Virus record (IMG/VR): IMGVR_UViG_2700989507_000009
From: a virus
Lineage: Duplodnaviria; Heunggongvirae; Uroviricota; Caudoviricetes
Strand: one strand, 5' to 3'
Length of the DNA: 8,770 nucleotides
The position numbers were made by a program. This document shows positions 1 to 3,000 of the stretch, in pieces. Numbering within the stretch: position 1 is the stretch's first letter; each line of letters starts with the position of its first letter.

Positions 1-3000
1 CGGCGCGCCAGCTGTTTAATGCGCGGATCCGGAGCATCGTATGAATCCGGCAGCGGAAGCCCTTCACCGTAAGCCATGGCATTGGACTGCCCGGCCAGTA
101 CGATGACGTAGTACCAATCCGGCTCAGATGAAGGGCCGACCTGTGGCTCTCCTTCAATAGCCACCGCCTGCATCAGTGTGTACGGCGTAATGGCAACCGG
201 TCCGCCGTATGGCTGCCAGCCCTCTTTCAGTTTGTGTGTCAGCTTTTCCGCAAGGTCTGACGGCGACGCCGCCCTGACAACATCGTAATGTTTAATCGAC
301 ATCGAATTTCTCCCGTGTAGAGGAACAGAGTTAAAAAGCCGGAAGCGGAATCAAATCACAGGATGACCATCTGCCAGTGGCAGGTCATAAAAAAAAGGCT
401 GCGCAATGCGCAGCCAGAACTCACAAGGAAAATGATAAAAGGAATAACACTAGTGATGTACGCATGGCGCCTCCCGCTAAGTTCTGCAATGATCAAACAG
501 AACTCGCTACGTGCCCTTAAAACTCGATCATTTAGCCCCTCCAAGGAGGATTCACCATGCGGTTGATTTTTTAATAAACAGTAAACAAAAAAGTCAAGAA
601 TTATTCATTCTGTTCTTTCATCATCGGCCACAGCAATACCACAATGCCGCAGACCAGAGCGCCATCAGTCAGTACCAACATTATCCTGCTGGTGAAATCC
701 ATCATCACCATCACTAAAAGCAGGATCACAACAGCAAGCAGACACAGTTTATAAAACAATGTTCAGAAAACGCATTCAGCATGCCTAAGGTTCTATTCCT
801 ACGAATAGCCAACTTGCAACTTGAAATATTATTTATGCAGCCAATTAAATTCTGGTCCTTACAATATCAACCTGAAGATTCTTATCTTGTGCTGATTGAT
901 AAATGACAAACCTTTTACTACCTGCATTGAAAGAAGTAGACAAAACCAGACAATTATCATAACGAGCAAGAACATAATACCAACCATCATTATAATTAAT
1001 CATTTCATATTCTTTCTTAAACTGTGGTTTGTAATATCCTGTCAGAAATGAAAAAAGCCAAAAATATGCCACAAAAGCAATCATCACAATCTCAAAAAAA
1101 TGTTTTTTTATAAATGGCTTATCATAGAAGCATGATACCGATAAAAATCGCCCATAAGATCTTATCGAAATTGTAACCGCCAGCGCAATCGCTGCTGACA
1201 GTAGCAAAAGAGGTACCTGAATCTTCTGTCTCAATATAGAAAACTCAATAATTGCCGGCACAAACAATAATTCCACAGCAAAATAAAGGCGAAATACATT
1301 TAGCTCTTGCATAGAATGTTTTCTTTTCACTGCGAAAAAGAATACAACACCAATACCCCAACCGATAAGAAATATAGCAATGACGATAACTGCAAAAAAT
1401 AAACTTCTGGCAACATCATCAACACCTGCACCTACAATCCACCATGGGAAGCCGTAGTAAAAAGAAGTACCCCATCCATAGAAATAAGCACTCCCCCATC
1501 CAAGGCATCCCATGTAGGCAATAAAAAGTGAAGAACTCCTGAGCAGCGCACCATCCTTCATAACCACCCCAATACAAGATGATAACATTGGCTTACAACT
1601 CATAACAAAAGCAATTCAATGCCGTCAAGAGGTTACAGGCTAAAAAAACTCTATTACATAGCAGCCAGCATGTTTACCGTACAAGTACAACTCAGGGCAT
1701 AAAAAAAACCCACTCGGCAGCGGGTTTATACATTTTTTACAACATACCAAATTTGCATGAAGTATATGGCTTTTAATCCAGTTTTGCAATATTTTGCTGT
1801 AAAAATGCTGCCTTTTGTTTTGAACGTGTTCTCGTCACAAGCAATAAAGCATCACTATCAAGCTGTAGAAAAATGTGCTTCATTGCAACCCAGCGTTCAG
1901 TAAATGTCTCGGACCAGTTTTTTGTTGTCACTCCCACCAATGATGCCAGTGTCTGGTATTCATAGGCCTCACGCCCTGCAAGTTCGCTCTTCACATCCTG
2001 TGCAGCCAGCCAGATTAACGTCTTCAGGCGATCCAGTGTCTTACCTGCAATTTTTCTGTTACTTAACAAATCTTTAAACTCGCTCCATGCCCATTGCGTT
2101 ATGGTGACCTGATGCCCCCATCGAACGCTTTCGCTGTAACACCAAAGCAACCATGCTTTCTGATGTTCATCGAGAGACAAAACCGCGCGGCGCCATGAAG
2201 AGGTTGAGAATTCAACCGGGCTGACCAAAGCAATGGATGAACCTTTTGCGTACGACTGCTTACCGGAAGTCGGCGTATTATCCAGCGTAATCATCTTGCC
2301 AGTTACCACATCCAGAATGCGCGGCTTCTTTCGTTTGTATGTACCAGTATCAAATTGTGCATGCTCCTGCCAGGCTTCGAGCTGGCCTTTCGTTGCTCCG
2401 TTCAAGTCAGCAGTAGCTGCCATAAGTTGCTCACGAACATACTGTAAATATTGGGTATTCATGCAGTAAATCCTTTCTATATTTTGGCATAATTCTTCAA
2501 CATTCGGTAATCGTTCAAAACCGAATCGGGGAAACGACATAAGCACAGGAGCCCCCAGCGACAGCGAAGGAGTTCTGATATATAAGACTCAGACATCATT
2601 CATTCCCCGGTTCTCCAATATCTGTTTCACTCATCATCCATAACTACCTGTAATTGCCCCCCTTTTTTTGTAACAGTTCTTATATTGCTATATAGAATAG
2701 CCATTACTAATGCATTTAAATTTAATAAAATAAAAATTATAAAAAACATAAAACACCACGCAAACACACTTAATAAAAACACCGTTACATTAAAAGATAA
2801 TAAAACCGCAATAAAAAACGAATAAATCAATTGTCTCACGCAATTATAAAACATCATATTGATTACGCACCTTGTATTACAAACTCATGTATGTAAAATA
2901 CGCGCACCATTCAAAAAAAAGGAAGACAATAACATATGAAAAAAAGTGTCATCGCTGGCGTCTTTATTGCTCTGTCATTTACCACGTGTTCAGCTATCGC

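What the first reader, a model, noticed from the sequence alone, without database searches (positions are those of the whole stretch)
560..1760. Unrecognised membrane-protein cargo in the stx-equivalent slot of the late operon
Immediately downstream of the Q-like gene and its pR'/tR' unit, where Shiga-toxin phages carry tRNAs and stxAB, this prophage has an AT-rich insert. It encodes a roughly 238-aa protein with about four TM helices, a Gly/Trp/Tyr-rich N-terminal segment and a soluble C-terminal domain of about 60 aa, which I cannot assign to any family. It is bracketed by terminators (1701-1727 upstream, 389-415 downstream) and precedes nanS-p. This arrangement predicts Q-dependent expression during prophage induction, like stx. 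Cargo here is typically a virulence factor, superinfection-exclusion or abortive-infection/defence function, so this is the best candidate in the window for a new system.
Basis: partly seen in the sequence, partly recalled or inferred. Interest (0 to 1): 0.8.

Follow-up and report, generated by a model that had tools for sequence, protein, structure and literature searches.

The report
TfpB-family membrane protein, phage 434 moron
The gene is real and sits where Shiga-toxin phages carry their toxin, but it is identical to an annotated gene of classical coliphage 434 and belongs to a catalogued, functionally uncharacterised membrane-protein family (Pfam TfpB) that repeatedly turns up beside toxin and virulence genes in animal-associated bacteria.

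Summary
Window 845-1561 (minus strand) encodes a 238-aa polytopic membrane protein in an AT-rich insert between the Q antiterminator with its tR' terminator and nanS-p. That interval holds stxAB in Stx phages.

It is not unrecognised. The region is 99.9-100% identical to coliphage 434 and to prophages in about 12% of complete E. coli genomes. The protein is a member of Pfam PF27470 "TfpB", named after the ORF in the Moraxella pilin-inversion region, and of PHROG 1521. Salmonella STM1630 is a 46%-identical homologue.

No fold, enzyme motif, defence-system match or conserved partner gene was found. Homologues are lone, AT-rich genes beside eltAB on ETEC plasmids, on Shigella pINV, beside sseJ/steB, cdtABC, iroBC/iss, LpxR and Moraxella pilin/piv. 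434B, which plaques, lacks the gene, so it is dispensable for lytic growth.

Best reading is a single-gene lysogenic-conversion moron acting at the cell envelope, probably with its own promoter as well as Q read-through. A host-colonisation role is more likely than phage defence. The biochemical function remains unknown.

It is a worthwhile experimental lead, not a new system. Interest 0.4.

The parts
845..1561 (-). TfpB-family (Pfam PF27470, PHROG 1521) inner-membrane protein, 238 aa. Databases annotate an upstream start at 1588 (247 aa).
   Evidence: ORF. Identical to 434 CPT_434_68 and WP_001302581.1. PF27470 tag. A profile links it to Moraxella 'protein tfpB' at E 1.6e-68. AlphaFold2 model with 5 helices and a beta domain. 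dN/dS 0.13-0.20.
1579..1629 (-). Candidate promoter(s) of the ORF itself: -35 TTGACG at 1629-1624 followed 17 nt later by TTATGA, and an overlapping TTGTTA-18-TATCAT with a TG extension (1608-1579).
   Evidence: Consensus scan. The TTGAC-N17-T(T/A)ATG block is conserved upstream of homologues in an ETEC plasmid, the iro island and an attB-lambda remnant, although their coding sequences are only ~57-59% identical. No transcript data, so this is an inference.
1706..1727 (-). tR'-type intrinsic terminator just downstream of Q and the late promoter.
   Evidence: 9-bp stem followed by a T run. Annotated as a terminator in 434. The same terminator sequence is retained upstream of the iro-island homologue.
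1761..1789 (-). Late-promoter (pR')-like site TTGCAA-17-TATACT overlapping the end of Q.
   Evidence: This is a consensus match only. A weak Rfam STnc240 hit lies at 1697-1766 (E 0.23).
1773..2462 (-). Q82-type late antiterminator Q.
   Evidence: Pfam Phage_antiter_Q, E 1.7e-91. Annotated as such in 434 and RefSeq.
601..759 (-). 52-aa DUF3927 / TciB-like small membrane protein, co-directional and immediately downstream.
   Evidence: PHROG 1470, E 2.5e-17. Annotated. Found only with the near-identical 434-type module, not with other TfpB homologues.
386..590 (-). sRNA-like element (sub-threshold STnc100 match) ending in the strong terminator at 397-415. It overlaps a doubtful 62-aa ORF (356-544).
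   Evidence: Rfam 41.4 bits against a gathering score of 47, E 6.7e-7, full-length model match. Terminator and in the 434 annotation.
1..302 (-). 5' end of the nanS-p type (DUF1737 + SASA) sialate O-acetylesterase gene, the next late-operon gene.
   Evidence: Pfam DUF1737, E 1.4e-16. 434 annotation 'SASA family carbohydrate esterase'. Homologous to yjhS/nanS-p of 276 mostly Stx-converting phage records.

Best explanation
Window 845-1561 encodes a stand-alone, horizontally mobile inner-membrane protein of the TfpB family (Pfam PF27470). It is carried as a moron in the variable cargo slot of a phage-434-type lambdoid prophage.

Shown:
- It is a conserved coding gene.
- It has five predicted helices plus a small C-terminal beta domain.
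- The aromatic N-terminal ~50 residues are under very strong constraint, and the C-terminal domain is much freer.
- It has no conserved partner gene and no invariant catalytic-type residues.
- It is dispensable for plaque formation.
- Its homologues are lone AT-rich genes next to toxin, effector or pilin loci in animal-associated Enterobacterales, Pasteurellaceae, Neisseriaceae and Moraxella.

Inferred:
- Topology is N-in/C-out, which places the variable beta domain in the periplasm.
- It is transcribed in the lysogen from its own sigma-70 promoter, probably silenced by H-NS and conditionally de-repressed as for STM1630. On induction it is also transcribed by Q-antiterminated read-through from pR'.
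- It acts non-enzymatically at the cell envelope as a lysogenic-conversion factor that alters fitness in the animal host. The conserved membrane core would engage a conserved envelope component, and the periplasmic domain would give specificity.

The molecular target is unknown.
For: Identity and family:
- 100%/99.9% DNA identity to STEC prophages and to phage 434.
- PF27470 is tagged on all 104 homologues, and the family is named TfpB.
- A profile built here retrieves Moraxella 'protein tfpB' at E 1.6e-68. That protein lies between pilin genes, next to the Piv-type recombinase gene.

Structure and constraint:
- AlphaFold2 pLDDT 79.7, pTM 0.72.
- By the positive-inside count, loops 79-85 and 134-154 carry most of the Lys/Arg.
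- dN/dS is 0.06 for residues 1-50 and about 0.4 for the C-terminal domain.
- Near-invariant residues are Ala, Gly, Pro, Tyr and Trp only.

Moron character:
- AT-rich and bracketed by terminators.
- The slot holds stx1AB in an Stx phage and nmpC::IS5 in the viable phage 434B.
- Only 434 and 2B8 among 50,697 phage records carry the gene.

Own promoter:
- The conserved TTGAC-N17 block appears in four unrelated contexts.

Host-fitness role:
- STM1630 is the Salmonella family member. It is a 717-bp membrane-protein gene beside sseJ, and the published deletion primer encodes P0075 residues 9-23.
- It is H-NS bound and expressed in SPI-2 medium and in macrophages.
- Its promoter is inactivated in all ST313 strains tested and the gene is absent from S. 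Typhi.
- Signature-tagged mutants are attenuated in calves and chicks. Deletion in strain 4/74 increases intramacrophage replication (citing Morgan 2004 and others).
- It falls in the SPI-2 co-regulated gene set.

Context:
- Homologues lie beside eltAB/estB, on 106 Shigella plasmids including the virulence plasmid pWR501, and beside cdtABC, iroBC/bor and LpxR.
- The family is small, with 74 representative clusters among 1.84 billion proteins. Its named members come from animal-associated genera.
Against: - No direct functional data exist for the E. coli/434 protein.
- The STM1630 phenotypes are modest and partly inconsistent. The hypermotility seen in a screen was not among the phenotypes confirmed with clean deletions. 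The apparent essentiality in transposon screens is attributed to H-NS. Deletion raised rather than lowered intramacrophage replication.
- Adjacency to virulence genes may only reflect shared descent from decayed prophage late regions. The iro-island copy still carries tR'.
- The promoter is a consensus match without transcript evidence.
- Topology rests on the positive-inside rule and an AlphaFold2 model, and three Lys residues follow the last helix.
- A variable periplasmic domain on a conserved core is equally what a phage-exclusion protein would look like.
Confidence: 0.45

Rival explanations
1. Superinfection exclusion or single-gene anti-phage defence. The inner-membrane protein blocks genome entry of incoming phages, or triggers membrane-level abortive infection. 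The fast-evolving periplasmic C-terminal domain would contact phage or injection proteins.
For: - It is prophage moron-slot cargo, expressed in principle from the lysogen.
- It combines a conserved membrane core with a diversifying periplasmic domain.
- In Moraxella the family sits inside the pilin-switching locus. Type IV pili are common phage receptors (PMC11841053).
- Its neighbour is a TciB-like gene placed in the PHROG 'host takeover / colicin resistance' category.
- Known Sie proteins (P22 SieA, T4 Imm, HK97 gp15; my own knowledge) are likewise small inner-membrane proteins with no recognisable fold.
Against: - No PADLOC match, and PHROG 1521 carries no function.
- In Salmonella enterica, the subspecies arizonae and diarizonae type strains and serovar Typhimurium all carry it, at the sseJ locus in every locus examined. 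It is co-regulated there with SPI-2. This is unlike the patchy, hotspot-associated distribution usual for defence genes.
- It is lost or silenced specifically in host-restricted invasive lineages.
- In Neisseria, Conchiformibius, Mannheimia and Aggregatibacter its neighbours are housekeeping genes, not defence islands.
- The family is small and ecologically narrow.
Confidence: 0.22
2. Tolerance or immunity factor against membrane-targeting bacteriocins, colicins or contact-dependent toxins of competing mucosal bacteria. It would work by binding the toxin or by masking an import component such as Tol or Ton.
For: - It is a polytopic small inner-membrane protein without enzymatic motifs.
- It occurs as orphan, AT-rich, horizontally spread single genes in dense mucosal communities.
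- Its neighbour is a TciB-like ORF annotated 'resistance to colicin'.
Against: - No cognate toxin gene is adjacent in any locus examined.
- Pore-former immunity proteins are usually highly toxin-specific. Here the most conserved part (omega about 0.06) is shared across Gamma- and Betaproteobacteria.
- No similarity to any Pfam family, colicin-immunity families included, at E up to 1.
Confidence: 0.1
3. Late-phase accessory of the lytic cycle. This would be a membrane protein made only under Q control that tunes lysis timing or helps release of periplasmic cargo such as toxins or the NanS-p esterase.
For: - It sits between Q/tR' and the holin-endolysin-spanin cassette, in the same transcription unit.
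- Its homologues lie next to periplasmically assembled AB toxins (LT, CDT) and in the stx position.
Against: - 434B forms plaques without it.
- Most homologues are in non-phage loci lacking any lysis genes.
- It is divergently transcribed from eltAB, not co-transcribed.
- None of the 50,697 phage records other than 434 and 2B8 carries it, so no Stx-converting phage in the collection has it.
- No PHROG lysis category is assigned.
Confidence: 0.07
4. It is a type IV pilus accessory protein like TfpY/FimB, as the family name would suggest, acting on pilus assembly.
For: - It is a family member of Moraxella TfpB, which lies directly beside pilin genes in the invertible segment.
- Its length (~240 aa) and its general plan of N-terminal TM helices plus a C-terminal periplasmic domain resemble the description of TfpY-like proteins.
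Against: - TfpY-like proteins are described with three TM helices followed by a mixed beta sheet, a helix and a second sheet. This protein is modelled with five helices up to residue 181 and one five-stranded domain.
- Outside Moraxella no homologue examined is next to pilin genes.
- The TfpY paper does not mention TfpB.
Confidence: 0.05

Closest known systems
Moraxella bovis/lacunata TfpB (ORF inside the Piv-invertible type IV pilin region; namesake of Pfam PF27470)
   Same: Same family. The profile match is E 1.6e-68. They share the N-terminal motif A-Y-x-Y-G-W-G...Y-Y-G-(F/Y)-P-W-W...I-A-R-S-L, a similar length (238 against 261 aa) and the same C-terminal beta-domain pattern. Both are uncharacterised.
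   Different: Only about 23-24% identity. The Moraxella gene is flanked by pilin genes, with piv nearby, whereas this one lies in a lambdoid late operon. The M. lacunata copy is truncated at 195 aa.
Salmonella Typhimurium STM1630 (SL1560), the membrane-protein gene between sseJ and steB
   Same: 46% identical full-length homologue (P0075). It is AT-rich, a lone gene, and next to horizontally acquired virulence genes. It is the only family member with phenotype and expression data.
   Different: It is chromosomal rather than prophage-borne, with no Q, DUF3927 or nanS-p neighbours. Its upstream region is unrelated to that of the E. coli genes.
Lambdoid lysogenic-conversion morons (lambda bor and lom, stxAB, nanS-p, 434 LpxR and Iss-like genes)
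   Same: It is inserted between conserved late-region genes, has deviant GC, has its own promoter-like and terminator signals, is dispensable for lytic growth, and occupies the same slot as stx.
   Different: It is an inner-membrane polytopic protein of unknown activity, not an outer-membrane protein, toxin or esterase. It shows no sequence or fold similarity to any of them.
Prophage superinfection-exclusion membrane proteins (P22 SieA, T4 Imm, HK97 gp15; from my own knowledge)
   Same: A small prophage-encoded inner-membrane protein with a periplasm-facing part. This is a plausible way for it to work.
   Different: No detectable homology. Unlike those proteins, it is widespread outside phages and fixed in chromosomes.
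TfpY/TfpZ/FimB-like pilin accessory proteins (PMC11841053)
   Same: About 235-245 aa, with N-terminal TM helices, a periplasmic C-terminal domain and unknown biochemical function.
   Different: The predicted architecture differs, with three TM helices plus an alpha/beta domain against five helices plus a five-stranded beta domain. Sequence relatedness could not be tested here.

Membership tests
Pfam PF27470 (TfpB) | Significant match to the family profile. | tested here: met
   The identical 247-aa protein P0001 and all 104 hits carry the precomputed PF27470 tag, and the family name is shown. An independent profile built from Neisseria, Pasteurellaceae and enterobacterial members retrieves Moraxella 'protein tfpB' (P0224) at E 1.6e-68. 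The local Pfam copy predates this model, so no direct hmmscan score is available.
Pfam PF27470 (TfpB) | Shared architecture: about 240 aa, a conserved aromatic/Gly N-terminal motif, a polytopic helical core and a short C-terminal beta domain. | tested here: met
   The alignments A3 and A4 run end to end with conserved A15, A25, Y26, Y28, G31, G37, P39, P102, G175 and Y195. AlphaFold2 model.
Lambdoid moron (lysogenic-conversion cargo) | Inserted between conserved phage genes, with base composition unlike the backbone. | tested here: met
   It lies between Q/tR' and nanS-p/holin. GC is 0.32-0.38 against about 0.50.
Lambdoid moron (lysogenic-conversion cargo) | Own promoter and terminator, allowing expression from the repressed prophage. 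| tested here: inconclusive
   Terminators are found. A promoter-like block is conserved across four unrelated contexts. There are no transcript data for this gene. The Salmonella homologue has a mapped promoter.
Lambdoid moron (lysogenic-conversion cargo) | Dispensable for lytic growth. | tested here: met
   434B, a plaque-forming phage, has DLP12 Q-nmpC::IS5 in place of this segment and gives no tblastn match to the protein.
Known anti-phage defence systems (PADLOC-DB v2) | Sequence match to a protein of a known or candidate defence system. | tested here: not met
   No family at E up to 1 for this ORF, the DUF3927 ORF or their neighbours.
Known anti-phage defence systems (PADLOC-DB v2) | Protection against phage infection. 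| not testable with these tools
   This needs plating assays.
TfpY/FimB-like type IV pilin accessory proteins | Three N-terminal TM helices followed by a periplasmic mixed-sheet/helix/antiparallel-sheet domain. | tested here: not met
   The model has five helices (10-36, 47-79, 84-111, 116-137, 155-181) and one five-stranded domain. The TfpY architecture is described.
TfpY/FimB-like type IV pilin accessory proteins | Encoded immediately downstream of the major pilin gene. | tested here: not met
   The window has no pilin gene. Only the Moraxella members are pilin-linked.
TfpY/FimB-like type IV pilin accessory proteins | Sequence homology to TfpY, TfpZ or FimB. | not tested
Holin / lysis-cassette proteins | Membership of a holin, antiholin or spanin family, or necessity for lysis. 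| tested here: not met
   No Pfam, NCBIfam or PHROG lysis family. The holin, endolysin and spanins are separately present downstream in 434. 434B lyses without the gene.

The most novel reading that the evidence does not exclude
The TfpB family may be an unrecognised, widely shared single-gene envelope module. It would act in one of two ways.

- It could exclude phages or bacteriocins at the inner membrane.
- It could be a general accessory factor that travels with periplasmic toxins and effectors (the Stx slot, LT, CDT, SseJ/SteB, Shigella pINV) and conditions the envelope for their carriage or release.

Either way, one conserved protein would link the cargo slots of virulence phages, plasmids and islands across Enterobacterales, Pasteurellaceae, Neisseriaceae and Moraxella.
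Probability: 0.2. Interest if true: 0.7.

Novelty: already known. Interest (0 to 1): 0.4.

Why it matters
The gene is not new. It is in phage 434, in about one in eight complete E. coli genomes, and in a Pfam family. Nobody appears to have connected its occurrences, though. The same uncharacterised membrane protein is found in the following places:
- the Shiga-toxin position of non-Stx STEC prophages;
- beside the LT genes of ETEC plasmids;
- on Shigella virulence plasmids;
- between two SPI-2 effector genes in Salmonella, as STM1630, which has in vivo attenuation data;
- next to cdtABC in Glaesserella;
- inside the Moraxella pilin switch.

If it has one common function, that function is relevant to many pathogens. 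It is also easy to test, because phage 434 lysogens of K-12, Salmonella 4/74 and Citrobacter rodentium in mice are all tractable. If the adjacency is only a fossil of decayed prophage late regions, the gene still marks the phage origin of those toxin loci.

Tried and rejected
Searches that found nothing informative:
- The local Pfam-A copy, NCBIfam and PADLOC gave no significant family for the ORF. The Pfam copy predates PF27470.
- PHROGs gave only 'unknown function' families.
- A PDB sequence-profile search gave nothing below E 2.8.
- The first AlphaFold2 run, with 29 close homologues, was poor (pLDDT 61.8). Adding distant homologues raised it to 79.7.
- Foldseek against the PDB and BFVD gave no hit at E up to 1e-3.
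- The AFDB50 library was not available.

Hypotheses tested and dropped:
- A two-gene system with the DUF3927/TciB-like neighbour is rejected. That ORF accompanies only the near-identical 434-type module.
- 'TfpB' as the Acinetobacter PilB-like motor is a name collision and not relevant.
- The TciA/B/C literature search returned only unrelated or P1-plasmid papers.
- The STM1630 hypermotility phenotype is not relied on. It was not among the phenotypes confirmed with clean deletions.
- The apparent essentiality of STM1630/SL1560 in transposon screens is attributed by the authors to H-NS occlusion.

Other dead ends:
- The genome scan with the 61-sequence alignment failed for lack of a conserved stretch, so it was repeated with the 14-sequence alignment.
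- A literature search for the RefSeq accession gave nothing.
- Searches for DUF3927 and for further Salmonella locus tags added no functional information beyond the H-NS/transposon point above.
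Full report
**What is in the window**

The window is the early-right/late-left junction of a lambdoid prophage read on the minus strand. The gene order is:
- a replication region cut by an IS3-family element;
- ren, ninB, an adenine methylase, ninE, ninF, ninG and a Ser/Thr phosphatase;
- a plus-strand LpxR gene;
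- ylcG and Q;
- the finding, followed by the start of a nanS-p type esterase.

Bases 300-1800 are 100% identical to prophages of E. coli O145:H28. They are at least 99% identical in 637 complete genomes, largely named O157:H7, O145, O26 and O111 strains among the rows listed. In all, 678 of 5,426 genomes carry at least 80% of the segment. The same bases are 99.9% identical to classical coliphage 434 (OL657226).

**Checking the observation**

The ORF 845-1603 is open on the minus strand.
- GenBank and RefSeq annotate 845-1588 (247 aa), as 434 CPT_434_68 'putative membrane protein' and WP_001302581.1 'hypothetical protein'.
- Homologues from Escherichia, Citrobacter, Cronobacter, Klebsiella, Enterobacter, Salmonella and Yersinia are 236-238 aa and begin at the methionine at 1561.

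Other checks also hold.
- GC drops to 0.32-0.38 across the gene.
- Terminator-like hairpins lie at 1727-1706 and 415-397, and both are annotated as terminators in 434.
- The upstream gene is a Q antiterminator (Pfam E 1.7e-91).
- The downstream gene has the DUF1737 N-terminus of SASA/NanS-p esterases.
- Hydropathy gives four strong TM segments.
- With 61 homologues, AlphaFold2 (pLDDT 79.7, pTM 0.72) predicts five long helices at 10-36, 47-79, 84-111, 116-137 and 155-181, then a five-stranded beta domain at 187-232.
- The positive-inside rule puts loops 79-85 and 134-154 in the cytoplasm and the C-terminal domain in the periplasm. This is an inference.
- The gene is under purifying selection, with dN/dS of 0.13-0.20. 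Selection is extremely strong on residues 1-50 (about 0.06) and relaxed on the C-terminal domain (about 0.4).

**Is it the stx-equivalent slot?**

Yes.
- In an Stx1a phage the order is Q, three ORFs on the opposite strand, stx1A, stx1B, yjhS/nanS-p and holin.
- The nanS-p 5' end of the window matches 276 phage records, most of them Stx-converting.
- In 434 the order is Q, tR', this ORF, DUF3927, a terminator, the SASA esterase and holin.
- In 434B, a plaque-forming derivative, the whole segment is replaced by DLP12 Q-nmpC::IS5.

The slot is therefore variable, and the cargo is dispensable for lytic growth. Among 50,697 phage records only 434 and phage 2B8 encode this protein. It is an alternative to stx in that slot, not a companion.

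**What family is it?**

The local Pfam copy, NCBIfam and PADLOC give nothing, and PHROG 1521 has unknown function. Every homologue in the large protein collection, however, carries a newer Pfam tag, PF27470, whose name is TfpB.

An exhaustive profile search found only 74 representative clusters at E up to 1e-3 among 1.84 billion proteins. Named members come from Neisseria, Actinobacillus, Gallibacterium, Avibacterium, Pasteurella, Mannheimia, Klebsiella and Mangrovibacter.

A profile of these members retrieved Moraxella 'protein tfpB' at E 1.6e-68. In Moraxella the gene lies between pilin genes, next to a 322-aa IS110-type (Piv-like) recombinase. This is the classic pilin inversion region. A scan of one genome per species added:
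- M. bovis, M. lacunata, M. equi and M. oblonga;
- Conchiformibius and Aggregatibacter (two copies per genome);
- Glaesserella, Rodentibacter and Spirabiliibacterium;
- Salmonella arizonae and diarizonae, and E. albertii.

The family signature is the N-terminal A-Y-x-Y-G-W-G-x-x-x-Y-Y-G-(F/Y)-P-W-W...(D/N)-(I/V)-A-R-S-L block plus a Y-Y-(I/V)-L...F pattern in the C-terminal domain. Across the whole family the near-invariant residues are only Ala, Gly, Pro and Tyr. This argues against an enzyme.

**Structure searches**

No solved or viral predicted structure resembles the model.
- Foldseek against the PDB and BFVD gave no hit at E up to 1e-3.
- The PDB sequence profile gave nothing.
- AFDB50 was unavailable.

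**Genomic company**

The gene is always a lone gene, and no partner is conserved. The DUF3927/TciB-like ORF at 601-759 accompanies only the near-identical 434-type module.

What recurs is the neighbourhood:

| Host or element | Neighbours | Identity to window protein |
|---|---|---|
| ETEC plasmids | divergent from eltAB; estB or astA nearby | 59% |
| 106 Shigella plasmids, incl. virulence plasmid pWR501 | IS-rich region | 57% |
| Salmonella chromosome | between sseJ and steB | 46% |
| ExPEC island | iroB/iroC and a bor/iss gene; tR' sequence still upstream | 57% |
| Citrobacter rodentium | directly beside a split LpxR | 66% |
| Glaesserella parasuis | beside cdtABC; GC 0.28 against 0.42 in the flanks | not measured |
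| Yersinia enterocolitica | downstream of a different Q family | 45% |
| Neisseria, Conchiformibius, Mannheimia, Aggregatibacter | housekeeping genes | 20-29% where aligned |

**Experimental knowledge on a homologue**

STM1630 of S. Typhimurium is this family. It is a 717-bp 'putative membrane protein' gene next to sseJ. The published deletion primer encodes NSSMLLAYLGGLGWG, which matches residues 9-23 of P0075.

According to PMC6785131 (S1 Text):
- its function is unknown;
- it is absent from S. Typhi;
- signature-tagged mutants were attenuated in calves and chicks (Morgan 2004);
- it is bound by H-NS;
- it is expressed in SPI-2-inducing medium and in macrophages in strain 4/74;
- its -10 box is destroyed by two SNPs in all ST313 isolates tested;
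- its deletion in 4/74 increased intramacrophage replication.

It also falls in a gene set co-regulated with SPI-2. A hypermotility phenotype from a screen was not among those confirmed with clean deletions. Its scarcity of transposon hits is attributed to H-NS.

**Expression of the window gene**

Position downstream of tR' in the late operon means that Q-modified RNA polymerase will transcribe it on induction. This follows from established lambdoid biology and is the same logic as for stx2.

There is also evidence for a separate promoter. A -35 TTGACG at 1629-1624 is followed after 17 nt by T(T/A)ATG. This block is conserved upstream of homologues in an ETEC plasmid, the iro island and an attB-lambda remnant, although their proteins are only about 57-59% identical to this one. 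A second, extended -10 candidate lies at 1608-1579.

I therefore expect lysogen expression, probably silenced by H-NS and conditional, plus late read-through. This is inference, because no transcript data were available.

**Most likely mechanism and rivals**

I commit at about 0.45 to a non-enzymatic inner-membrane lysogenic-conversion factor that acts at the envelope and affects fitness in the animal host. Four observations support this:
- the Salmonella in vivo data;
- loss or silencing of the gene in host-restricted invasive lineages;
- restriction of the named family members to animal-associated genera;
- the virulence-locus neighbourhoods.

Superinfection exclusion or single-gene defence (about 0.22) fits the conserved core and variable periplasmic domain and the prophage location. 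It fits poorly with a gene kept at the sseJ locus in the Salmonella enterica genomes examined and co-regulated with SPI-2, and with the absence of any PADLOC match.

The remaining rivals are less likely, for the reasons given under each:
- bacteriocin or colicin tolerance (about 0.10);
- a late-lysis or toxin-release accessory (about 0.07);
- a TfpY-like pilus accessory role (about 0.05).

The virulence-gene adjacency may partly be a fossil of prophage late regions, as the retained tR' in the iro island shows. That would weaken the functional inference without changing what the object is.

**Verdict**

The positional logic and the variable cargo slot are right, and Q read-through is plausible. 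'Unassignable' and 'new system' are wrong.

The object is an already catalogued gene of an uncharacterised family. Its main value is the cross-pathogen link assembled here and the easy genetics available to test it.

Noticed in passing
window 601-759 (-): A 52-aa DUF3927 / TciB-like small membrane ORF lies immediately downstream of the target gene (PHROG 1470, E 2.5e-17; annotated TciB in phage 434). It accompanies only the near-identical 434-type module, not other TfpB homologues.
   Followed up: partly
window 386-590 (-), terminator 397-415: A full-length but sub-threshold match to Rfam STnc100 (41.4 bits against a gathering score of 47, E 6.7e-7) ends in a strong intrinsic terminator just upstream of nanS-p. 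It overlaps a doubtful 62-aa ORF (356-544) that the 434 record calls a putative membrane protein. It may be a prophage sRNA rather than a protein gene.
   Followed up: no
window 2936-3895 (+): An LpxR-family outer-membrane lipid A deacylase gene (Pfam E 6.8e-40) is AT-rich and on the opposite strand, between the phosphatase gene and ylcG/Q. It is a second moron. In Citrobacter rodentium a frameshifted LpxR is the direct neighbour of the TfpB-like gene, so the two may travel together.
   Followed up: partly
L056 (phage 434B, OL657227) 1778-5369: The viable mutant 434B carries DLP12 Q and nmpC::IS5 in the Q-to-holin slot, in place of the TfpB-like, DUF3927 and esterase genes. This is direct evidence that the slot is exchangeable and its cargo dispensable for plaque formation.
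   Followed up: yes
L045-L048, L055 (ETEC plasmids); L054 (Shigella pWR501): A 57-59% identical homologue lies about 870 bp upstream of eltAB and divergent from it, on many ETEC plasmids. Another lies on 106 Shigella plasmids, including the virulence plasmid pWR501. Both are annotated only as 'hypothetical protein'.
   Followed up: partly
L022/L023 (Moraxella lacunata) 3959-4546: The tfpB reading frame in M. lacunata NCTC10359 stops at 195 aa, against 261 aa in other Moraxella. The gene therefore appears disrupted in that species.
   Followed up: no
window 7742-8683 (-): An IS3-family transposase ORF (8165-8683) abuts what looks like only the C-terminal part of the O-like replication gene (7742-8098). 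In the otherwise identical O145 prophage (L002) an IS3 element sits next to ren instead. These prophages are IS-riddled and probably defective.
   Followed up: no
window 1697-1766 (-): A weak Rfam STnc240 match (28 bits, E 0.23) covers the short pR'-to-tR' transcript region. This is consistent with a 6S-like or StxS-like short late leader RNA, but is far below threshold.
   Followed up: no
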